A DNA stretch of 32,000 nucleotides, taken from Thermococcus kodakarensis KOD1. GTDB lineage: Archaea > Methanobacteriota_B > Thermococci > Thermococcales > Thermococcaceae. Positions 4,361 to 25,062 of this stretch are shown one piece after another. The stretch covers positions 1,110,001 through 1,142,000 of the forward strand of contig NC_006624.1 in assembly GCF_000009965.1 (NCBI RefSeq), in the 5' to 3' direction. Position numbers and translations under genes: made by a program. Positions within the stretch are counted from its first letter, which is position 1, and each line of letters starts with the position of its first letter. The notes under the pieces are model-generated. The model was given only the letters and a program-made list of their open reading frames with translations. It was not told where the DNA came from and did no database searches.

Positions 4361-7027
4361 ATGCTTCCTAAAAACTACGACCCCAACGAGATTGAGCCCA
4401 AGTGGCAGAAGTTCTGGCTCGATGAGAAGATATACAAGTACGAGCTCGACGAAAAGAAGCCGAGCTACGCGATTGATACGCCCCCACCGTTCACGAGCGG
4501 AACGCTCCACCTCGGCCACGTTCTCAGCCACACCTGGATCGACATCATAGCCAGATACAAGAGGATGACCGGCTACAACGTGCTCTTCCCGCAGGGCTTC
4601 GACAACCACGGCCTTCCAACAGAGCTGAAGGTCGAGAAGGAGTTCGGCATAAGCAAGGACCAGCCAGAGAAGTTCCTCCAGAAGTGTATCGAATGGACCT
4701 GGCAGGCCATAGAGGCGATGAGGAACCAGTTCATAAGGATAGGCTATTCCGCCGACTGGGACCTCGAGTACCACACGATGGACGACTGGTACAAGGCAGC
4801 TGTCCAGAAGTCCCTCATCGAGTTCTACAAGAAGGGAATGCTCTACCAGGCGGAGCACCCAGTCTATTGGTGCCCGCGCTGCAGGACGAGTCTTGCCAAG
4901 GCAGAGGTCGGCTATGTGGAAGAGGATGGCTTCCTCTACTACATCAAGCTCCCGCTCGCCGATGGAAGCGGTCACGTGCCGATAGCCACCACCAGGCCAG
5001 AACTCATGCCCGCCTGTGTGGCAGTTTTCGTCCACCCTGAGGACGAGCGCTACAAGCATGTTGTCGGCAAGAAAGTGAAGCTCCCGATATTCGAGAGGGA
5101 AGTTCCCGTTCTGGCCGACGAGGACGTTGACCCGAGCTTTGGAACTGGTGCTGTCTACAACTGTACCTACGGCGACGAGCAGGACGTCGTCTGGCAGAAG
5201 CGCTACAACCTTCCGGTCATCATAGCTATCAACGAGGACGGAACGATGAACGAGAACGCCGGGCCCTATGCAGGGCTTAAGACAGAGGAAGCCAGGAAGA
5301 AGATAGCCGAAGACCTTGAAAAGATGGGTCTCCTCTACAAGAAGGAGAAGATAAGGCACAGGGTCCTCCGCCACACCGAGAGGAGCTCCTGTATGGCTCC
5401 CATCGAGCTCCTGCCGAAGAAGCAGTGGTTCATCAAGGTGAAAGATTTCACGGATGAAATCGTCAAGGTTGCCGAGCAGATAAACTGGTACCCACCGGAC
5501 ATGTTCCTCCGCCTGAAGGACTGGGCGGAGTCAATGGACTGGGACTGGGTCATCAGCAGGCAGAGGGTCTTTGGAACGCCGATACCATTCTGGGTCTGCG
5601 ATAACGGCGAGATAATCCTGCCGAACGAGGAAGATCTGCCAGTTGACCCGCGCTTTGAGAAGCCCCCGAGGAAGTGCTCCGACGGGAGCGAGCCAAAGCC
5701 TGTAACTGACGTCCTCGACTGCTGGGTCGACTCGAGCATAACCCCGCTCATAATCACCAAGTGGCACGAGGCCATTAAGGGCGACGAAGAGGGTAAGAAG
5801 TGGTTCGAGCACAACTTCCCAACGGCTCTGAGGCCGCAGGGAACGGACATCATAAGAACGTGGGCGTTCTACACAATATTCAGAACGTGGGTTCTCACCG
5901 GCGAGAAGCCCTGGCACGACATCCTCATCAACGGTATGGTCGCCGGACCGGACGGAAGGAAGATGAGCAAGAGCTATGGCAACGTGGTTGCCCCGGACGA
6001 GGTCATTCCAAAGTACGGCGCTGACGCTCTAAGGCTCTGGACGGCTTTAGCGCCGCCCGGAGAGGACCACCCGTTCAAATGGGAGACCGTTGACTACAAC
6101 TACCGCTTCCTCCAGAAGGTCTGGAACATCTATCGCTTCGCCGAGAGGCACCTTGAGAACTTTGACCCGGCGAGCGCCCCAGAAGAGCTCGAACCGCTCG
6201 ACCGCTGGATACTCAGCAGGCTCCACAGGCTTATCAAGTTCGCGACCGAGGAGATGGAGAAGTACCGCTTCAACCTCCTCACCAGGGAGCTGATAACCTT
6301 CGTCTGGCACGAGGTCGCGGATGACTACATTGAGATGATCAAGTACAGGCTCTACGGCGACGACGAGGAGAGCAAGCTGAAGGCGAAGGCTGCCCTCTAC
6401 GAGCTGCTCTACAACGTGATGCTCCTGCTGGCCCCGTTCGTGCCGCACATCACGGAGGAGCTCTACCAGAACCTCTTCCGCGAGAGGATTGGAGCCAAGA
6501 GCGTCCACCTACTCGAGTGGCCGAAGTACAGCGAGGCCAGGATTGACGAGGAGGCTGAAAAGCTCGGAGAGCTCGCTCGCGAGATCGTCGGCGCCATGAG
6601 ACGCTACAAGAACAGCCACGGCCTCTCGCTCAACGCCAAGCTCAAGCACGTGGCAATCTACACCACCGATTCCTACGAGGTGCTCAAGACCATAGAGAAA
6701 GACATAGCTGGAACCATGAACATCGAGAAGCTTGAGATAATCAAGGGCGAGCCCGAGCTTGAAGAGAGGATAATCGAGATAAAGCCGAACTTCAAGACGG
6801 TAGGACCGCGCTATGGAAAGCTCGTGCCGAAGATCACCGCCTACCTCAAAGAGAACGCGGAAGAGGTGGCAAAGGCACTCAAGGAGAGCGGAAAGATCGA
6901 GTTCGAGGTCGATGGCCAGAAGGTAGAACTTACCAAGGACGACATCGTGCTCAGGAAGGCCGTCTTCAGCGAGGGAGAAGAGGTCGAGACGGCGGTCGTT
7001 GGAGACGCTGTGATACTCTTCTTCTGA
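4361..7027 (+). CDS. valS: valine--tRNA ligase (ValRS)
   Basis: Class I aaRS signatures PPPFTSGTLHLGH (HIGH) and KMSKS. The length of about 890 aa and the overall pattern fit archaeal ValRS rather than IleRS or LeuRS. GGGTGAT lies 4 nt before ATG4361; the ORF track begins at GTG4352. Confidence 0.95.
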   Translation: MLPKNYDPNEIEPKWQKFWLDEKIYKYELDEKKPSYAIDTPPPFTSGTLHLGHVLSHTWIDIIARYKRMTGYNVLFPQGFDNHGLPTELKVEKEFGISKDQPEKFLQKCIEWTWQAIEAMRNQFIRIGYSADWDLEYHTMDDWYKAAVQKSLIEFYKKGMLYQAEHPVYWCPRCRTSLAKAEVGYVEEDGFLYYIKLPLADGSGHVPIATTRPELMPACVAVFVHPEDERYKHVVGKKVKLPIFEREVPVLADEDVDPSFGTGAVYNCTYGDEQDVVWQKRYNLPVIIAINEDGTMNENAGPYAGLKTEEARKKIAEDLEKMGLLYKKEKIRHRVLRHTERSSCMAPIELLPKKQWFIKVKDFTDEIVKVAEQINWYPPDMFLRLKDWAESMDWDWVISRQRVFGTPIPFWVCDNGEIILPNEEDLPVDPRFEKPPRKCSDGSEPKPVTDVLDCWVDSSITPLIITKWHEAIKGDEEGKKWFEHNFPTALRPQGTDIIRTWAFYTIFRTWVLTGEKPWHDILINGMVAGPDGRKMSKSYGNVVAPDEVIPKYGADALRLWTALAPPGEDHPFKWETVDYNYRFLQKVWNIYRFAERHLENFDPASAPEELEPLDRWILSRLHRLIKFATEEMEKYRFNLLTRELITFVWHEVADDYIEMIKYRLYGDDEESKLKAKAALYELLYNVMLLLAPFVPHITEELYQNLFRERIGAKSVHLLEWPKYSEARIDEEAEKLGELAREIVGAMRRYKNSHGLSLNAKLKHVAIYTTDSYEVLKTIEKDIAGTMNIEKLEIIKGEPELEERIIEIKPNFKTVGPRYGKLVPKITAYLKENAEEVAKALKESGKIEFEVDGQKVELTKDDIVLRKAVFSEGEEVETAVVGDAVILFF

Positions 7028-8031: not shown

Positions 8032-9672
8032 TCATCTAGTTTCCAACCTCCAGAGAATTATGCCAACCAGAATCACAGCTACCACCGCTAGAACCGATAT
8101 CTTAGGGATGTTCTCTCTCATTCCCGTGTTTAGATCTGAGCAAAGCGGGAGGCCGAGCACGCTAAGGGGTTCATAATACGGTGGGACGATGTAGGCATCT
8201 CTCCAGGTGATAAGGAGAAACGTGTTGTTACCCACGACAACGGCTTCGGTTTTATCCGCAAGGGCGTAGCTAATGGGTATCCTTCTGCCGTTGTTTATGA
8301 TGAATGCAGTATTATTCTCGTGATCAATTTGAAGGGTTCCAGTTTCGTTATTCGGGATGTATTCGCCATTCACGGGAATATATCTAGGGGGGATCAGGTT
8401 CTTTCCCAGCTCCCTCTCATCCGTCGTGTTGAAGATTTTGAAGCCCTCATCGGTCAGCTCGTAGGCAGTGAAGCCCTCGGTAGTGGTCCCGTTCTGTCGT
8501 ATCTCCCACAAGAAGGCAACAAGGGGGTGGTCGTTCTTTCTGTAAACTTGAACCCAAACGTGATGGTACACGTTTTCATCTTCCTGGTAGTCCAGCCAGT
8601 AGTAGGTTTTCCTCGGGGTTTCAACGGTGTAGTTTCTCCAGGAGAGGGTTCCGTTTCCCAGGAGGACGTAGGAATCGTTGTATTCAGCGATGGGGAGACC
8701 ATCTATATAGAGGGCTTCTCTGCACTTTCCGCTAACCCTGTACACAACTGGAAGGTTGTACATCCTGAACGAGACCACCCACTCGTTTTTCTCCCACGAC
8801 CAGAAACCGTAGAGGGACTTCAGCGGTCTCGACGAGTACGCCAACTTTAGCACTTCCTTTGTGATGTCCCTCTTCGTGCCGTTTGCGATCAAGAAATACC
8901 TCGTGGGAGTGTATTCCGGAAGGAAAGAGAGCGGCTCGTACCTGATTCCATCCTCAACCGCAATATCGAAGGGCGCTTTAACCTCAGGAATGTGGAATCC
9001 CTCAGGGGTCTCGTTTTTAAGCTCGAAGTCTCCGTTGTGGTAGAGGTAGTAAACGGTAGTGTTCGGAAAGATCATATCTACGCGGGCCCACAGGCGGTTT
9101 TTGTTGTCCAGTCCGAGGTTGACCCACGCGTAGGGGGTAATGCCCGCGTTCTCGGGGGCTATCGTGTCCCTCGCCTCCCACGAGAGGCCCCACTCCCCGG
9201 TAACGTTCAGTGTTTTTGGGTCGAGCCTGAAAACGCTGTCGCTGGCTGAGTGAGGAACACTCCCATAGTTAACAACGAGAAAAATGCTCCCGTTGTAGAA
9301 CAGAAAATCGCGGGCATAGCCGACGTAATTGGGGAGCACCGGCCTTAGGGTTATGGGAACACTTCCGTTGTACACCCCCATGTAGAGTTCGTCGTACGGG
9401 TAAGAGTAGATAAGGGTTAGGTTTCCGGCATTGGCAACCTCCAGAGTGTCCACAATGGATAAAAAGTCTCCATCTTCGTATGGCAGCTCCTCCGCTTCAA
9501 GCTTCCATGTTAGATCTTGGAATTCGCTCCCATTGTACGCAAAAAGCCCGTCGTTCTCAACAAGCAACTGGTGACAGCTTTCACACCAGGCTGTACTGTA
9601 GGCACTCACGCAGGGCGATGAGAGTACAATCAAAACAGATATGAGAGCGAGTAATTTTCTATAGTGATTCAT
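8032..9672 (-). CDS. secreted, C-terminally membrane-anchored protein of unknown family; rich in N-glycosylation sequons
   Basis: GGTGAT RBS followed by ATG9672. Signal-peptide-like N-terminus MNHYRKLLALISVLIVLSSPCVSA. C-terminal TM segment ISVLAVVAVILVGIILW followed by RLETR. I count 16 N-X-S/T sequons by hand. No recognisable catalytic motif. Confidence 0.8.
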   Translation of the reverse strand: MNHYRKLLALISVLIVLSSPCVSAYSTAWCESCHQLLVENDGLFAYNGSEFQDLTWKLEAEELPYEDGDFLSIVDTLEVANAGNLTLIYSYPYDELYMGVYNGSVPITLRPVLPNYVGYARDFLFYNGSIFLVVNYGSVPHSASDSVFRLDPKTLNVTGEWGLSWEARDTIAPENAGITPYAWVNLGLDNKNRLWARVDMIFPNTTVYYLYHNGDFELKNETPEGFHIPEVKAPFDIAVEDGIRYEPLSFLPEYTPTRYFLIANGTKRDITKEVLKLAYSSRPLKSLYGFWSWEKNEWVVSFRMYNLPVVYRVSGKCREALYIDGLPIAEYNDSYVLLGNGTLSWRNYTVETPRKTYYWLDYQEDENVYHHVWVQVYRKNDHPLVAFLWEIRQNGTTTEGFTAYELTDEGFKIFNTTDERELGKNLIPPRYIPVNGEYIPNNETGTLQIDHENNTAFIINNGRRIPISYALADKTEAVVVGNNTFLLITWRDAYIVPPYYEPLSVLGLPLCSDLNTGMRENIPKISVLAVVAVILVGIILWRLETR

Positions 9673-16848: not shown

Positions 16849-16935
16849 TGTTGTCCATTATTTTTAGATCTTCTCTGGATATTAGCCTACCTTTCCCAAA
16901 CTCCCTTTGGAAGTGATTCTAGAGGAACCAAGAAC

Positions 16936-17753
16936 TTGGCGAACCCAACGGAACTACCGTTCCGTGCGTTGAAGCAGAGCTTCAACGTCGCGCAGGAAGC
17001 TTTTAGAAAAAGCTTCACCAATGAAACTTTGCAAGCAAAGTTTCATCAAAGTGCGTGGTTCGTGTTTGACGGAGCATTTTGGGCGGATTTTCCTTTTGAA
17101 CGCTGTTGGGAGTGGCGAATTCTATTTTTAATTTGCCCGATCTGTGTGAGTTTGCTTTTTAATTGACGCCCCACGGGCGTCAAGGTGTTAGAAACTCCTT
17201 TTAGAGGGCTGAAATTGGGAATTCACTAATGCTAGCTTGTGTATCTTGAAAATCCTTTTGAATCAGCCAATTGAAAGTAAACCCCTCATAAAACGAGCCT
17301 GTTTAAAAGAGCATATCAACTTTCCGCCATCCGTTAAGGACGCTTGAACGACAGTGAAAGCGGCGCTGAAGCTTTTAGAAAAAGCTTCACCAAAAGTTTG
17401 AATGTCTTCGTGATATTGGCTGAGAATTGGAATTCTCATGACAAATTTGCAGATGAATAGGGGTTTTCTTATTTTTAACGCCTTTCGGGCGTTATACTGC
17501 GAGCAAACCCCTTGAGGATTTCCAATTTATGGTGAGAATCACTGAAAAGCTGGGCACTCAAAAAGGACATTCCATCTTTGATGAAACTTTGCCCACAAGC
17601 TTTTGGAAAAAGCTTGACCAAAAGTTTGTAGCTCTTCTTCAAGGAGAGTTTTATTTTAGGATTTTAGACTGCAAGTGCTCATTTTTGAGTGAGAACCTTT
17701 TAGGAAGCTTCTTGAAGAGGGTGTTTTCTTTTCTTTGACGCCCTTTGGGCGTC
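16936..17753. repeat. three degenerate tandem units of a modular non-coding repeat (palindromic 5' module, variable core, T-run plus GC hairpin)
   Basis: The 26-mer GAAGCTTTTAGAAAAAGCTTCACCAA occurs at 16996-17021 and 17368-17393, and with 3 substitutions at 17596-17621. ATGAAACTTTGC occurs at 17021-17032 and 17581-17592. ACCAAAAGTTTG occurs at 17389-17400 and 17617-17628. GGCTGARAATTGG(G)AATTC occurs at 17207-17224 and 17418-17435. GC hairpins preceded by T-runs lie at 17163-17183, 17476-17494 and 17737-17753. Confidence 0.75.
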
Positions 17754-17899
17754 GATTTTGAGTTAAACACGCACTAACAGGAGAGTTTAGAAGTTCTCTC
17801 TTTTGAACACAATTGCTCGACGAGAAAAATCACATGAAATTGGCATTCTGGAAAAGAGCTACGAGCCTTGATCAAACTTCGCCTGCGCGAAGTTTGTAC

Positions 17900-17977
17900 T
17901 GGTGGGCCCGGGGGGCTTTGAACCCCCGACCACGCGGTTATGAGCCGCGCGCTCTGACCAGGCTGAGCTACGGGCCC
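17900..17977 (-). tRNA. tRNA with CAT anticodon (Met elongator or, given the Ile-like acceptor stem, tRNA-Ile2), CCA encoded
   Basis: Hand-folded cloverleaf: GGGCCCG-TA-GCTC-AGCCTGGTCA-GAGC-G-CGCGG-CTCATAA-CCGCG-TGGTC-GGGGG-TTCAAAG-CCCCC-CGGGCCC-A-CCA (78 nt). Confidence 0.9.
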
Positions 17978-17983
17978 ACCTGA

Positions 17984-18059
17984 TGGCGCCGCCGCCCGGA
18001 TTCGAACCGGGGACCGCCGGATTAACAGTCCGGCGCTCTACCAACTAAGCTACGGCGGC
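17984..18059 (-). tRNA. tRNA-Asn (GTT), CCA encoded
   Basis: Hand-folded: GCCGCCG-TA-GCTT-AGTTGGTA-GAGC-G-CCGGA-CTGTTAA-TCCGG-CGGTC-CCCGG-TTCGAAT-CCGGG-CGGCGGC-G-CCA (76 nt). It lies 6 nt upstream of the CAT tRNA on the same strand. Confidence 0.93.
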
Positions 18060-18152: not shown

Positions 18153-18229
18153 GCCCCGGTAGCCTAGCCTGGCGGGGCGGCGGACTTGTAATCCGCAGGT
18201 CGCGGGTTCAAATCCCGCCCGGGGCTCCA
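18153..18229 (+). tRNA. tRNA-Thr (TGT), CCA encoded
   Basis: Hand-folded: GCCCCGG-TA-GCCT-AGCCTGGCG-GGGC-G-GCGGA-CTTGTAA-TCCGC-AGGTC-GCGGG-TTCAAAT-CCCGC-CCGGGGC-T-CCA (77 nt). Confidence 0.93.
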
Positions 18230-22680: not shown

Positions 22681-25062
22681 TCAGAACTCAAGCTCGTCCT
22701 CTTCCTCGAAGAGCCTCTTCCTGGCGGCCTCGAGGAGGATCTTCTGCTCCTCCTGGGCAACGGTCTTCCTGATGAGCTCGACGGCATCCGGGTTAGCGGA
22801 GATGCTGTCGATGCCGAGCCTGACGAGGATCTTGGCCATCTTCGGGTCACTTCCGGCCTGTCCGCAGATGCTGGTTTCAACGCCGTGCTTCTTGGCGACC
22901 TTAATTACGTGCTTGATGAGCTTGAGCACGGCCGGGTGGGTCTCGTCGTAGAGGTGGGCGATCCTGTCGTTGTCCCTGTCGATGGCGAGGGTGTACTGAG
23001 TGAGGTCGTTGGTACCGAAGCTGACGAAGTCGATGCCCTCCTTGATGAGGTCCTCGATGATGAGGGCCGCTGCTGGAACCTCGATCATGATGCCCCACTC
23101 GACGTCCTTGTGCGGCTCAAGGCCGACTGAGCGGGCGATCTCCTTGGCCTTCCTGATCTGCTCTGGGTGGCCGACGAGCGGGAGCATGACGCCGATGTTG
23201 TTGTAGCCCTCCTCGACGACCTTCTTGATGGCGGTGAACTCGGCCTTGAGGAGCTCCGGCTGGTCGAGACCGCGCCTGATTCCGCGCCATCCGAGCATCG
23301 GGTTCCTCTCGTCCGGCTCGTCCTCTCCACCGGGCATCTCCTTGAACTCGTTGGTCGGGGCGTCGAGGGTCCTGTACCAGACCGGCCTCGGGTAGAAGGC
23401 AGCGGCAACGGTCCTGATACCGTCGGCGAGCTTCTCAACGAGCTCGTCGAACTTGCCCTCCTTGATGAACTTGATCGGGTGCTGGCCGATGCTGAGGATC
23501 ATGTGCTCAGCCCTGAGAAGACCGACACCGTCGGCGCCGGTGGCGGCAGCCCTCTCGGCGACCTCGGGCATTGAGACGTTGACCTTGACCTTGGTCGCGG
23601 TGATGAGCGGAGCTCCAGCAACGACGACCTGACCGCCAGCGGCTCCAGCGGCCTTCTCCTCCTTCTTCTCGACGAGGCTCTTGACTATGCCCTTGTAGAC
23701 GACACCGCGGGTACCGTCAACGGTGACGTAGTCGCCAGTCTTGAGCTTCTTGGTGGCCTCCTTGGTACCGACGACGGCCGGAATACCGAGCTCACGGCTG
23801 ACGATGGCAGCGTGGCTGGTCCTTCCACCCTCGTCGGTGACGATAGCGGAGGCCCTCTTCATTGCCGGAACCATGTCCGGGTTGGTCATGGTAGTGACGA
23901 GGACGTCGCCCTCCTTGACCTTGTCGATCTCGCTGGCGTCGAAGATGACGACGACCCTACCGGCACCGATGCCCGGTGAGGCACCGAGACCCTTGAGGAT
24001 GACCTCGGCCTCCTCAGTGCCCTCGACCTCCTCGGCCTTGGTCTCTTCCTTGAGGGTGGTGATCGGCCTGCTCTGGACGATGTAGAGCTTGCCGTCGTCC
24101 TTGTCGTAGGCCCACTCGATGTCCTGCGGCCAGCCGTAGTGCTCCTCGATCTTGGCACCCATCTTGGCGACCTCGATTATCTGCTCGTCGGTGAGAACCT
24201 GCTTCTCAACCCACTCCGGACCGAGGTAGTCGGCGACCTTGACGTAGACGGTGCCCTTGCCGGTCTCGGGGTTCCTGACGACCATGACTTCCTTCTTGGC
24301 GATGAACTTCTCCTTGATCTTCCAGGTGCCCTTCTCGACGATGTACTCGTCCGGGGTGACGCTGCCGCTGACGACGGCCTCACCGAGGCCCCAGCTGGCG
24401 TTGATCATGATCTCGTTCCTGTTGTTGGTGACCGGGTTGGCGGTGAACATAACACCGCTCTTCTCGCTGTTGACCATCTTCTGGACGACGGCTGAGAGGT
24501 AGACCTTGCTGTGGTCGAAGCCCTGCTTGGCCCTGTAGAAGGTAGCCCTGGCAGTCCAGAGTGAGGCCCAGCACTTCTTGACCTTGTCTATGACGTCATC
24601 AACGCCGTAGACGTCGAGGTAGGTCTCCTGCTGGCCGGCGAAGGAAGCCTCCGGGAGGTCCTCAGCGGTAGCGGATGAACGGACGGCGACGTAAACGGCA
24701 TCCTTGTTAAAGCGGGCGCTGAGCTCCTTGTAAGCCCTCTCGATCTCCTCGGCTATCTCCGGGAGCATCGGAAGCTCGATGATCTTCTGCCTGATCTTGG
24801 CGGTGTTCTCCTGGAGCTGCTTGGAGTCGTCAACGTTGGTCTGGCTGATGATCTCCATAATCCACTCCTGGAGGGTCTTACCGTCCTCAAGCTTAACGTT
24901 CTCGACAAAGTACTTGTAGGCCTCTGCAGTCACACAGAATCCGGGCGGAACCGGAATTCCGGCCTTGGTGAGTTCACCAAGGTTGGCACCCTTTCCACCG
25001 ACAAGGGGAACATCTTCCTTGCCGAGCTCCTCAAACCACTTTATAAACCTGTATTCGCTCAT
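22681..25062 (-). CDS. ppsA: phosphoenolpyruvate synthase (pyruvate, water dikinase)
   Basis: ATP-grasp N-terminus VPLVGGKGANLGELTKAGIPVPPGF, the phosphohistidine motif GGRTSHAAIVSRELGIPAVVG, and a C-terminal PEP-utilizing TIM barrel (FVSFGTNDLTQY). 793 aa. Confidence 0.96.
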   Translation of the reverse strand: MSEYRFIKWFEELGKEDVPLVGGKGANLGELTKAGIPVPPGFCVTAEAYKYFVENVKLEDGKTLQEWIMEIISQTNVDDSKQLQENTAKIRQKIIELPMLPEIAEEIERAYKELSARFNKDAVYVAVRSSATAEDLPEASFAGQQETYLDVYGVDDVIDKVKKCWASLWTARATFYRAKQGFDHSKVYLSAVVQKMVNSEKSGVMFTANPVTNNRNEIMINASWGLGEAVVSGSVTPDEYIVEKGTWKIKEKFIAKKEVMVVRNPETGKGTVYVKVADYLGPEWVEKQVLTDEQIIEVAKMGAKIEEHYGWPQDIEWAYDKDDGKLYIVQSRPITTLKEETKAEEVEGTEEAEVILKGLGASPGIGAGRVVVIFDASEIDKVKEGDVLVTTMTNPDMVPAMKRASAIVTDEGGRTSHAAIVSRELGIPAVVGTKEATKKLKTGDYVTVDGTRGVVYKGIVKSLVEKKEEKAAGAAGGQVVVAGAPLITATKVKVNVSMPEVAERAAATGADGVGLLRAEHMILSIGQHPIKFIKEGKFDELVEKLADGIRTVAAAFYPRPVWYRTLDAPTNEFKEMPGGEDEPDERNPMLGWRGIRRGLDQPELLKAEFTAIKKVVEEGYNNIGVMLPLVGHPEQIRKAKEIARSVGLEPHKDVEWGIMIEVPAAALIIEDLIKEGIDFVSFGTNDLTQYTLAIDRDNDRIAHLYDETHPAVLKLIKHVIKVAKKHGVETSICGQAGSDPKMAKILVRLGIDSISANPDAVELIRKTVAQEEQKILLEAARKRLFEEEDELEF

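What the first reader, a model, noticed from the sequence alone, without database searches (positions are those of the whole stretch)
16849..17899. A 1 kb AT-rich island with no credible ORF, made of three modular repeat units, wedged between a GTPase gene and a tRNA cluster
This is the only long stretch in a tightly packed window without a credible gene. Hand counts of 60-nt lines give about one-third G+C (17221-17280: 19/60; 17641-17700: 20/60), against 38/60 in a ppsA line (23221-23280). It is not random AT-rich spacer. Three units share a 5' module, the 26-mer GAAGCTTTTAGAAAAAGCTTCACCAA (identical at 16996 and 17368, 3 changes at 17596). Each then has a non-homologous middle of roughly 60-110 nt. 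Each ends in a 3' module of a T-rich run followed by a GC hairpin (17163-17183, 17476-17494, 17737-17753). Further short modules (ATGAAACTTTGC, ACCAAAAGTTTG, GGCTGARAATTGGAATTC, CTTTTGAA) recur in shuffled order. Conserved ends around a variable core suggests a small family of structured non-coding RNA genes, each with its own oligo-T terminator; TATA-like 'cattatttttag' near 16856, 'gtttaaaaga' near 17301 and 'caatttat' near 17523 could serve as promoters. It could instead be an array of protein-binding sites, or the decayed remnant of an element that once sat next to the tRNA genes. I cannot tell these apart from sequence alone.
Basis: partly seen in the sequence, partly recalled or inferred. 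Interest (0 to 1): 0.7.

Follow-up and report, generated by a model that had tools for sequence, protein, structure and literature searches.

The report
Foldback repeat array behind tRNA genes
The gene-free AT-rich kilobase is a head-to-tail stack of three copies (one intact, two decayed) of a roughly 285-base palindromic repeat that many Thermococcus genomes carry directly behind tRNA genes, and published data show it launches three small orphan transcripts, so it is real, transcribed and apparently undescribed as a family, but its function is unknown.

Summary
16849-17899 has no credible ORF, 41.7% G+C against 52.0% for the window, and three related units. Each is about 285 nt, not 140-260. 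It is a long imperfect palindrome closed by an outer stem (GTAGCTC/GAGCTAC). The "T-run plus GC hairpin" is its centre, not its 3' end. The 26-mer palindrome lies at the tRNA-distal edge.

The same architecture recurs in dozens of Thermococcus-like metagenome contigs and in T. peptonophilus. In 20 of 43 full copies the element starts 16-23 nt after the 3' end of a tRNA gene, always in one orientation, behind 12 tRNA species. Stems covary strongly but show no G:U over A:C excess, so the pairing looks DNA-level.

Coordinates show the window is T. kodakarensis KOD1. Genome-wide, 21 of 53 unnamed orphan start sites lie within 1 kb behind tRNA genes.

Best reading: a tRNA-flank-anchored, MITE/BIME-like foldback repeat whose AT-rich boxes fire as promoters. 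A functional hairpin-RNA family is not excluded.

The parts
16849..16993 (.). Non-repeat spacer between the TK1286 stop codon and the outermost unit. It carries two short hairpins: GGAACTACCGTTCC (16950-16963) and GTTGAAGCAGAGCTTCAAC (16968-16986).
   Evidence: Sequence and coordinates. It is identical in Logan contigs of the same species up to the first palindrome.
16994..17312 (+). Unit A, outermost and degenerate. It holds palindrome H0 (16996-17016), an extra 12-bp hairpin (17021-17046), an inner stem GAGTTT (17148-17153) / AAACTC (17192-17197) and the apex GC hairpin (17165-17181). Its tRNA-side arm is decayed.
   Evidence: nhmmer 82 bits, profile positions 3-268. Coordinates.
17365..17592 (+). 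Unit B, middle, with an internal deletion. It holds H0 (17368-17388), a closing stem GAATGTC (17400-17406) / GACATTC (17566-17572), an inner stem GGGGTTT (17460-17466) / AAACCCC (17505-17511) and the apex hairpin (17477-17493).
   Evidence: nhmmer 69 bits, profile positions 2-291. Apex lies at +108 instead of about +140. Coordinates.
17593..17882 (+). Unit C, next to the tRNA and intact. Its parts are:
- H0 at 17596-17616, with a compensatory G..C to C..G change.
- P1: GTAGCTC (17628-17634) / GAGCTAC (17856-17862).
- P3 box GATTTTAGAC (17660-17669).
- P4: GAGAAC (17691-17696) / GTTCTC (17793-17798).
- P5: GTGTTT (17721-17726) / AAACAC (17765-17770).
- Apex hairpin at 17737-17753.
   Evidence: nhmmer 189 bits on + and 86 bits on -. 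Fold z-scores are -4.6 on + and -3.8 on -. It is about 83% identical over its whole length to the unit behind tRNA-Gln in T. peptonophilus. Coordinates.
17873..17896 (.). tRNA-proximal hairpin CAAACTTCGC-CTGC-GCGAAGTTTG, 3 nt from the CCA end of tRNA-Met.
   Evidence: (I25). The same kind of hairpin lies 2-6 nt after CCA in 19 other tRNA-unit junctions.
17900..18059 (-). tRNA-Met (17900-17977) and tRNA-Asn (17984-18059). They form one transcript (TKt17-TKt16 bicistron) whose 3' end anchors the array.
   Evidence: ARAGORN and Rfam. Bicistron note in Table S8 of PMC4247193.
17031..17031 (+). Published orphan transcription start (genome 1127031). The TATA-like TTTTAGAAAA of H0 in unit A lies at -30 to -21.
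   Evidence: PMC4247193 supplementary files 2 and 9. Sequence context.
17285..17285 (+). Published orphan transcription start (genome 1127285). CTTTTGAAT (17255-17263) lies at -30 to -22.
17691..17806 (+). Published orphan transcription start at 17691 (genome 1127691). It is the first G of the P4 stem, and ATTTTAGA lies at -30 to -23. The predicted 108-nt apical hairpin RNA ends in CUCUUUUGA.
   Evidence: Start site. Fold -40.6 kcal/mol, z -3.2. The 3' end is inferred, not measured.

Best explanation
The island is a head-to-tail array of three copies of a Thermococcus-wide, roughly 285-bp foldback repeat that sits immediately behind tRNA genes.

Each copy is a long imperfect DNA palindrome with these parts:
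- a short hairpin at the tRNA side;
- a closing inverted repeat (AAAGTTnGTAGCTC ... GAGCTACnAACTTT);
- several inner helices;
- a GC-rich apex hairpin;
- the palindrome AAGCTTTT-N3-AAAAGCTT at the far side.

I read it as a DNA-level interspersed repeat of the MITE / REP-BIME kind, not as a set of dedicated RNA genes. Copies are inherited with their tRNA over species-level time. They are occasionally copied or swapped between tRNA flanks and reshuffled by recombination at the shared short modules. The copy next to the tRNA stays intact and outer copies decay.

AT-rich boxes inside the units (TTTTAGA / TTTTGAA) work as archaeal TATA boxes. They launch short transcripts, mostly towards the tRNA, that fold into hairpins and stop at T-runs.

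Shown: the anatomy, the family, the tRNA anchoring, the covariation, the lack of strand signature, the turnover and the start sites.
Inferred: the mode of spread, that the transcripts are by-products, and the transcript 3' ends.
For: Family and anatomy:
- An exact-pattern scan found 91 matches in 82 metagenome contigs, mostly 44-58% G+C and Thermococcus-like, with the same layout.
- The apex hairpin lies at +135 to +143 and the closing stem at +251 to +265.
- The profile hits each unit on both strands.

tRNA anchoring:
- 20 of 43 full units have a tRNA 3' end 16-23 nt away, all in one orientation, behind 12 tRNA species.
- The junctions are stereotyped.
- tRNAs followed directly by co-directional ORFs lack units.

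Pairing:
- 86.1% of cells pair, against at most 54% when partners are slid.
- 122 double-change cells were seen against 49.6 +/- 5.8 in shuffles, 0/500 shuffles reaching the observed value.
- There is no strand signature: 27 against 33 isolated mismatches, and 93 G:U-type against 138 A:C-type.
- The two arms are about 54% identical, including blocks outside the helices.

Dynamics:
- Weaker copies lie further from the tRNA.
- A contig of the same species (99.85% identical through the gene) carries a different unit after the first palindrome.
- The syntenic tRNA-Thr/Asn/Met cluster in L129 has a collapsed unit and different neighbours.
- The T. peptonophilus unit behind tRNA-Gln is about 83% identical to unit C behind tRNA-Met. 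Homology starts right after CCA.
- Neighbours of the units are housekeeping genes, not transposases.

Transcription:
- Three orphan start sites lie in the island, each with a TATA-like box.
- 21 of 53 orphan start sites in KOD1 lie within 1 kb behind tRNA 3' ends, where about 1 is expected (P about 5e-23). They occur on both strands: 16 point towards the tRNA and 11 away.
Against: - No target-site duplication, no near-identical copies at different loci within one genome, and no linked transposase or integrase were found. Mobility is therefore inferred only from turnover and from one 83% cross-tRNA pair.
- Units at orthologous loci persist across species at 74-93% identity. That fits a host function as well as it fits a selfish repeat.
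- Start sites recur at the same distance from different KOD1 tRNAs: 208/209 nt, and 250/262/265 nt.
- The 17691 transcript begins exactly at the foot of a stem and folds end to end. These two points suggest designed transcription units.
- The fixed orientation and the 2-6 nt spacing from CCA argue for a functional tie to the tRNA gene.
- I saw only 32 kb of the source genome. Its other tRNA flanks were judged from published coordinates, not from sequence.
Confidence: 0.5

Rival explanations
1. The units are genes for a family of structured hairpin RNAs. Internal TATA-like boxes start transcription at the foot of a stem. The RNA folds into a long or apical hairpin and ends at a T-run. The RNAs act in trans, or on the convergent tRNA transcript.
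For: - Three published start sites in the island carry promoter-like boxes.
- Start distances recur behind other KOD1 tRNAs.
- The 17691 RNA folds from base 1 into a 108-nt hairpin followed by UUUU, z -3.2.
- Six helices covary strongly.
- Jaeger et al. argue that orphan start sites with BRE/TATA motifs are discrete products.
Against: - G:U does not exceed A:C in the helices on either strand.
- Most copies elsewhere carry TTTTGGAAAAA in the palindrome, a poor TATA box.
- The U-run after the P4 stem is not conserved in other units.
- Unit B has an identical palindrome to unit A but no start site.
- Transcripts from 17031 and 17285 fold no better, or only slightly better, than shuffles: z -0.9 and -2.1.
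- There is no Rfam family.
Confidence: 0.25
2. The tRNA-proximal unit is a functional 3' module of the tRNA gene. It would be a hairpin-rich terminator or insulator, or a DNA structure that shields the tRNA 3' end. That end is the usual landing site of integrating elements and a breakpoint for inversions. Outer copies would be duplicates that lost the function.
For: - A stereotyped hairpin lies 2-6 nt after CCA, with fixed orientation, behind 12 or more tRNA species.
- The proximal copy is always the best preserved.
- tRNAs co-transcribed with a downstream ORF lack it.
- A T-tract follows the outer stem on the tRNA strand.
- tRNA genes are integration and inversion sites in Thermococcus (PMC5495485; T. 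cleftensis locus).
Against: - About half of the full units are not next to a tRNA. Some of these sit after housekeeping genes at conserved positions.
- The one tRNA flank I saw among the Thermococcus MAG loci, tRNA-Lys in L028, has no such element.
- A 285-bp palindrome is far more than termination needs.
Confidence: 0.17
3. The island is the decayed remnant of a protein gene, or of an integrated virus or plasmid that entered at the tRNA gene.
For: - The position next to tRNA genes and the low G+C fit.
- Relatives carry other insertions at these spots: a small two-ORF insert I took by eye for an antitoxin plus PIN toxin pair in L027 (no family search run), and an integrase-bearing element in T. 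cleftensis.
Against: - No match in phage or plasmid collections.
- No Pfam or PHROG family for any ORF.
- The repeats fall in different frames in different ORFs.
- No direct repeat of a tRNA 3' part and no integrase fragment were seen.
- The same non-coding architecture recurs at dozens of loci.
Confidence: 0.03

Closest known systems
REP / BIME elements of enterobacteria (mobilised by RAYT tyrosine transposases)
   Same: Both are non-coding palindromic intergenic repeats, assembled into mosaic arrays from a few module types and placed after the 3' ends of transcription units. They can be transcribed as hairpins. The foot of the outer stem reads GT(A/G)(G/A), recalling the GTAG foot of REPs. 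That resemblance comes from my own knowledge and is a lead, not a test.
   Different: Units here are about 285 bp rather than about 35 bp. The host is archaeal. Anchoring to tRNA 3' ends and a fixed orientation are not REP features. I could not look for a RAYT-like gene.
MITEs and foldback elements (for example Neisseria Correia elements, Sulfolobus SM MITEs)
   Same: Both are 150-300 bp, non-coding, have terminal inverted repeats and are intergenic. Correia elements also carry promoters and give hairpin transcripts (my own knowledge).
   Different: No target-site duplication was found. There are no near-identical dispersed copies: core identity is mostly 55-70%. Position and orientation relative to tRNA genes are fixed. 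Copies persist at orthologous loci.
Orphan small RNAs of T. kodakarensis (Jaeger et al. 2014, Table S6)
   Same: Three entries of that table (TSS 1127031, 1127285 and 1127691) are these very transcripts.
   Different: The paper lists them as unnamed and unrelated candidates 'conserved in Thermococcus'. It does not note the repeat family, the palindromic architecture or the link to tRNA 3' flanks.
tRNA-gene-targeting mobile elements (integrases using tRNA attB sites; Dictyostelium TRE and yeast Ty3)
   Same: Both accumulate right next to tRNA genes, and tandem stacking occurs at the tRNA side.
   Different: There is no integrase or reverse transcriptase. The tRNA 3' segment is not duplicated at the far end. 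Many different tRNA species are used.
CRISPR arrays
   Same: Both show short palindromic hairpins alternating with longer, more variable segments, in an AT-rich non-coding stretch.
   Different: The 'spacers' are homologous to each other and are themselves palindromes. The hairpins are not identical. The only CRISPR-repeat hit is insignificant (E 9.3).

Membership tests
Structured non-coding RNA gene family | The region is transcribed from defined start sites | tested here: met
   Published dRNA-seq start sites lie at window 17031, 17285 and 17691 on the + strand, with TATA-like boxes at -30 to -22.
Structured non-coding RNA gene family | Conserved secondary structure supported by compensatory changes | tested here: met
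   86.1% of cells pair. 28 pairs show double changes. 122 double-change cells were seen against 49.6 +/- 5.8 in shuffles (0/500). At most 54% pair when partners are slid.
Structured non-coding RNA gene family | Strand signature of RNA pairing (G:U tolerated, A:C avoided on the transcribed strand) | tested here: not met
   93 G:U-type against 138 A:C-type in the helices. 27 against 33 isolated arm mismatches.
Structured non-coding RNA gene family | Transcript ends at homologous positions in different copies | tested here: inconclusive
   Within the island the three start sites fall at different unit positions. Across KOD1 tRNA flanks the distances 208/209 and 250/262/265 nt recur. 3' ends were not measured.
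Structured non-coding RNA gene family | Match to a curated RNA family | tested here: not met
   Only the three tRNAs reach significance in Rfam 15 at E up to 10.
MITE / foldback transposable element | Terminal inverted repeats bounding a short non-coding element of constant length | tested here: met
   The outer stem lies at +251 to +265 from the distal palindrome in nearly all full copies. Each unit also matches its own reverse complement.
MITE / foldback transposable element | Target-site duplication flanking each copy | tested here: not met
   The junctions show inverted, not direct, repeats. The only direct repeat, ACAAACTT, is part of the element's own modules.
MITE / foldback transposable element | Near-identical copies at unrelated loci (recent transposition) | tested here: not met
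   Among 47 full units, pairs at 93% identity or more are orthologous loci. Most pairs are 55-70% identical. One cross-tRNA, cross-species pair reaches about 83%. Only metagenome contigs and a few loci were sampled, not whole genomes.
MITE / foldback transposable element | A cognate transposase in the same genome | not testable with these tools
   The complete source genome was not available. Ten neighbouring ORFs are housekeeping genes.
REP / BIME | Mosaic arrays built from a few palindromic module types at the 3' ends of transcription units | tested here: met
   At least three long-hairpin types (a, b, c) and three short hairpin types combine in arrays.
REP / BIME | Associated RAYT (Y1 transposase) gene | not tested
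   No genome-wide protein search was possible for the source organism.
Remnant of an integrated virus or plasmid at a tRNA att site | Direct repeat of the tRNA 3' segment at the far border, integrase fragments, or similarity to known elements | tested here: not met
   No match to phages or plasmids. No family hits for the ORFs. No tRNA-like fragment in the island.
CRISPR array | Identical direct repeats separated by unrelated spacers | tested here: not met
   Repeats differ from each other and the intervening segments are homologous. The CRISPR-DR28 hit has E 9.3.

The most novel reading that the evidence does not exclude
Terminal tRNA genes in Thermococcus would be paired with a dedicated, convergently transcribed long-hairpin RNA gene. 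On this reading the foldback unit is a conserved functional partner of the tRNA gene. Its hairpin RNA or its cruciform-prone DNA would control tRNA 3'-end formation or read-through, or would protect the tRNA 3' end from the integrases that use it as a landing and inversion site. This tRNA-linked system would account for about 40% of the orphan small RNAs of the model archaeon T. kodakarensis.
Probability: 0.15. Interest if true: 0.8.

Novelty: new variant of a known kind. Interest (0 to 1): 0.6.

Why it matters
T. kodakarensis is the main genetic model for hyperthermophilic archaea. Its 55 "previously unrecognized small transcripts" have had no explanation.

- This work ties three of them to one repeat family.
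- By coordinates, 21 of the 53 unnamed orphan start sites lie in the flanks behind tRNA genes.
- Interspersed palindromic repeats are well known in bacteria. My literature searches found no description of such a family in Thermococcales, and a family locked to the 3' end of many different tRNA genes is unusual anywhere.
- The arrays sit at synteny breakpoints and differ between near-identical strains. They may therefore contribute, with tRNA genes and plasmid integrases, to the very high rearrangement rate of Thermococcales chromosomes.
- KOD1 is easy to engineer, so the function can be tested directly by deletion.

Tried and rejected
- Rfam scan at E up to 10: only tRNAs.
- BLAST of the island against plasmid and phage collections: nothing.
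- Synteny through the GTPase gene in 25 Thermococcus MAG loci: the island is not there, and the downstream region differs in every relative.
- Viral-contig scans with the palindrome and with the closing-stem motif: no Thermococcus hits.
- C/D-box and H/ACA readings: rejected by eye, because there are no box motifs, no K-turn and no ACA at the right place.
- Small-protein reading: the repeat falls in different frames and no families match.
- RNAalifold on the raw alignment recovered only three helices, because the variable arms align poorly. I defined the structure by hand instead.
- A no-GU folding test gave 10 G:U-type against 24 A:C-type. I set it aside as structure-dependent and replaced it with arm alignment and helix counts.
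- Look-ups of the upp protein with two start codons found nothing. The exact proteins of the window are absent from the protein cluster collection.
- A promoter role for the distal palindrome in general: doubtful, because most copies have GG in the centre.
- Literature searches for a Thermococcales MITE or repeat family, and for the palindrome sequence itself: nothing relevant.
Full report
WHAT IS AT THE COORDINATES. The stretch between the stop codon of a DRG-type GTPase gene (ending 16848) and tRNA-Met (17900-17977, minus strand) holds no credible gene. The largest ORFs are 76 and 69 codons and match no Pfam or PHROG family. Including the tRNAs, it is the largest gene-free gap in the window. 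The 26-mer is identical at 16996 and 17368 and has three changes at 17596, where no match is expected by chance. Rfam finds only the three tRNAs. The observation therefore stands.

THE REAL UNIT. The 21-nt core of the 26-mer is a 9-3-9 palindrome. The third copy keeps the pairing through a G..C to C..G double change. I scanned public metagenome contigs for this palindrome and found 91 matches in 82 contigs. Most are Thermococcus-like, with 44-58% G+C. In these copies three features hold.
- A GC-rich hairpin lies at a constant +135 to +143 from the palindrome.
- A sequence complementary to the 12-14 nt that follow the palindrome lies at a constant +251 to +265.
- A profile built from 38 full copies hits every unit on both strands. 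For window 17593-17882 the scores are 189 bits on + and 86 bits on -.

The unit is therefore a long imperfect palindrome of about 285 nt. In the window the profile delimits three units.
- 16994-17312: 82 bits, with an extra 26-nt hairpin and a decayed tRNA-side arm.
- 17365-17592: 69 bits, with an internal deletion.
- 17593-17882: 189 bits, intact.

The island is thus almost wholly three units laid head to tail, plus a 145-nt spacer next to the GTPase gene.

THE LINK TO tRNA GENES. I mapped units, tRNAs and ORFs on all fetched contigs. Of 43 distinct full-length units with enough flank, 20 have the 3' end of a tRNA gene 16-23 nt from one fixed end. All 20 share the same relative orientation, behind 12 different tRNA species. 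Three more have the tRNA one unit further away. The junction is stereotyped: tRNA-CCA, then 2-6 variable bases, then a 10-bp hairpin of one of three sequence types, then ATCAAAGTT and the outer stem. A third unit type ('c') starts with CAGCCCTTKC...GMAAGCGCTG GCGGAAG and follows further tRNAs. tRNAs that are followed at once by a co-directional ORF have no unit. Weaker, degenerate units lie further from the tRNA in the same orientation, exactly as in the window. The other half of the full units lie away from tRNAs. Some of these sit after housekeeping genes, for example a rhomboid protease gene at orthologous loci in three contigs.

IS THE PAIRING REAL, AND ON WHICH STRAND? I drew six long-range helices and two short hairpins by hand onto a 39-sequence alignment and counted pairs. 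86.1% of cells form standard pairs, against at most 54% when partners are slid by 1-3 columns. 28 pairs show changes on both sides. There are 122 double-change cells against 49.6 +/- 5.8 in shuffles, and no shuffle of 500 reaches the observed value. Pairing potential is clearly maintained. It does not look like selection on one RNA strand, however. In the helices there are 93 G:U-type and 138 A:C-type combinations on the + strand. Among isolated mismatches between the two arms the counts are 27 against 33. The arms are also about 54% identical, including blocks outside the helices. This is what a DNA-level inverted repeat gives. It is also what one would see if both strands matter.

HOW THE COPIES EVOLVE.
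- Core identity between units is mostly 55-70%. Pairs at 93% or more are orthologous loci. There is thus no sign of a recent burst, and copies persist at orthologous loci across species (74-93%).
- The arrays nevertheless turn over. A Logan contig of the same species, 99.85% identical through the GTPase gene, diverges right after the first palindrome into a different unit of the same architecture.
- A contig with the same tRNA-Thr/Asn/Met cluster (87% identical) has a unit collapsed to its outer stem and hairpins, and has different neighbouring genes.
- One tRNA-Gln gene with its promoter is inverted relative to its neighbours in one contig.
- In Thermococcus peptonophilus the unit behind tRNA-Gln(ttg) is about 83% identical over its whole length to the window's unit C behind tRNA-Met. 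Homology starts immediately after CCA and ends at the outer stem. A unit, or part of one, has therefore been copied between tRNA flanks.
- T. zilligii carries a diverged 'c'-type flank. A T. onnurineus-like genome has a degenerate unit behind tRNA-Leu next to upp.
- The tRNA-Lys flank in one MAG has none.
- I found no target-site duplication, no tRNA-fragment repeat and no transposase or integrase next to units.

THE SOURCE AND THE TRANSCRIPTS. The T. kodakarensis primary-transcriptome paper states that a tRNA-Thr is antisense to the upp gene TK1287. The window shows the same arrangement. Its supplementary tables give these coordinates: TK1286 at 1125682-1126848, TKt16 at 1127900-1127977, TKt17 at 1127984-1128059, TKt18 at 1128153-1128229, TK1287 at 1128208-1128900 and TK1289 at 1130469-1131881. 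Each equals a window feature plus exactly 1,110,000. The window is therefore T. kodakarensis KOD1.

The same tables list three orphan + strand start sites inside the island, at window 17031, 17285 and 17691. Table S6 lists them as unnamed candidate small RNAs, 43-47% G+C, 'conserved in Thermococcus'. Each has TTTTAGA or TTTTGAA at -30 to -22.
- For 17031 the box is the centre of unit A's palindrome.
- For 17691 it is the P3 box of unit C, and the start is the first G of the P4 stem.

The 17691 RNA would fold from its first base into a 108-nt hairpin followed by CUCUUUUGA (z -3.2). The other two fold weakly (z -0.9 and -2.1). Transcript 3' ends were not measured.

I then crossed Table S6 with the tRNA coordinates of Table S8. 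21 of the 53 unnamed orphan start sites lie within 1 kb downstream of a tRNA 3' end, where about 1 is expected (binomial P about 5e-23). Adding four 'antisense-to-tRNA' start sites, 16 point towards the tRNA and 11 away. Distances recur: 208/209 nt; 250/262/265 nt; and 67-85 nt on the tRNA strand. I could not read those other flanks, so the idea that they hold units is an inference.

WHAT IT MOST LIKELY IS. I rate a DNA-level interspersed foldback repeat anchored to tRNA 3' flanks as the best reading (0.5). In it, AT-rich boxes fire as promoters. It accounts for the symmetry without strand signature, the mosaic modules, the decaying outer copies, the turnover between close strains, the cross-tRNA copy, the copies away from tRNAs and the transcription from both strands.

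A family of functional hairpin-RNA genes (0.25) is kept alive by the recurrent start distances and the neat 17691 hairpin. A functional 3' module of the tRNA gene (0.17) is kept alive by the fixed spacing and orientation and by the better preservation of the proximal copy. A decayed gene or integrated element is nearly excluded (0.03).

COMPARISON WITH WHAT IS KNOWN. It works most like bacterial REP/BIME mosaics and MITE or Correia-type foldback elements. It fails the tested MITE criteria of target-site duplication and near-identical copies. It could not be tested for a cognate enzyme, so I do not file it as a member of either family. The three transcripts were already listed in 2014, but not as a family and not in relation to tRNAs. 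Searches for a Thermococcales repeat or MITE family, for the palindrome sequence itself, and in the papers on Thermococcales rearrangements found no description.

LIMITS. The metagenome hits were selected by an exact match to the palindrome, so its invariance in the alignment is ascertainment. Conservation of the other modules is not. The arm alignments are imperfect in the variable parts. The structure was drawn from the consensus of the same sequences, which inflates the 'cells paired' contrast with slid partners but not the double-change counts.

Noticed in passing
window 18208-18229: The 3' end of the upp gene (TK1287, minus strand) overlaps tRNA-Thr (18153-18229, plus strand) by 22 nt. 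The published transcriptome paper also notes this tRNA as antisense to TK1287.
   Followed up: partly
L037-L056 (IMG/VR contigs, G+C 0.57-0.70): About 15 high-GC bacterial provirus contigs share one repeat: AAAGTTTTTGGGTG - GCCGCC...GGCGGC hairpin - AAGCTTTTTGGAAAAAGCTT - CACCAAAAACTTT. It matches the Thermococcus palindrome plus CACCAA over the 22 bases I forced, but not clearly beyond them. It is probably convergent, but the coincidence is striking.
   Followed up: partly
L063 348-400, L045 about 9110-9160, L126 about 2700-2980, L087 2414-2470, L077 about 4969-4993: In AT-rich, non-Thermococcus contigs the same palindrome plus ACCAA occurs singly or in tandem about 25-35 nt upstream of start codons. 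One such gene looked to me like a ribosomal protein uL2 gene (not checked). This suggests a promoter or operator role in other archaea or their viruses.
   Followed up: no
L064 1-160 and L128 8360-8542: A 55% G+C contig shows tRNA 3'-end-like fragments (GGGTTCAAATCCCGCCTGGCCCGG). Each is followed directly by the palindrome, CACCAA and a GC hairpin, and the block repeats about 106 nt apart. This is a different arrangement of the same short module next to tRNA-like ends.
   Followed up: no
L144 4750-5850 (Thermococcus cleftensis CP003651.1): In the same ppsA-MATE-MATE-upp synteny, the tRNA-Leu(caa) next to upp is interrupted after the anticodon loop by an element that starts with a Phage_integr_3 integrase gene and small ORFs. 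tRNA genes at this spot are therefore active integration sites.
   Followed up: partly
L027 5181-5908: In the closest MAG (98% protein identity for the GTPase), the gene is followed at once by two small overlapping ORFs. By eye they look like a UPF0175-type antitoxin and a PIN-domain toxin. The downstream side of this GTPase gene is variable across the genus.
   Followed up: no
L092 3840-4180 compared with L095 850-1020: The tRNA-Gln(ttg) gene and its promoter are inverted relative to the triosephosphate isomerase gene and the unit in one contig. An internally deleted mini-unit of about 90 nt sits beside it. This is a very local inversion at a tRNA.
   Followed up: partly
L001 1317-1512 (Logan ERR16012702): A read-set assembly with the GTPase gene 99.85% identical to the window carries a different, 'c'-like unit after the first palindrome. 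This is either a strain variant of KOD1-like Thermococcus or a mixed sample.
   Followed up: partly
window 16837 (minus strand): The published map lists an antisense start site at genome 1126837, inside the last codons of TK1286 and pointing back into the gene.
   Followed up: no
L001-L005: All five Logan contigs that carry the exact GTPase protein begin within 2 nt of its start codon and end inside the island at 16954-17189. Assemblies therefore break on both sides of this gene.
   Followed up: no
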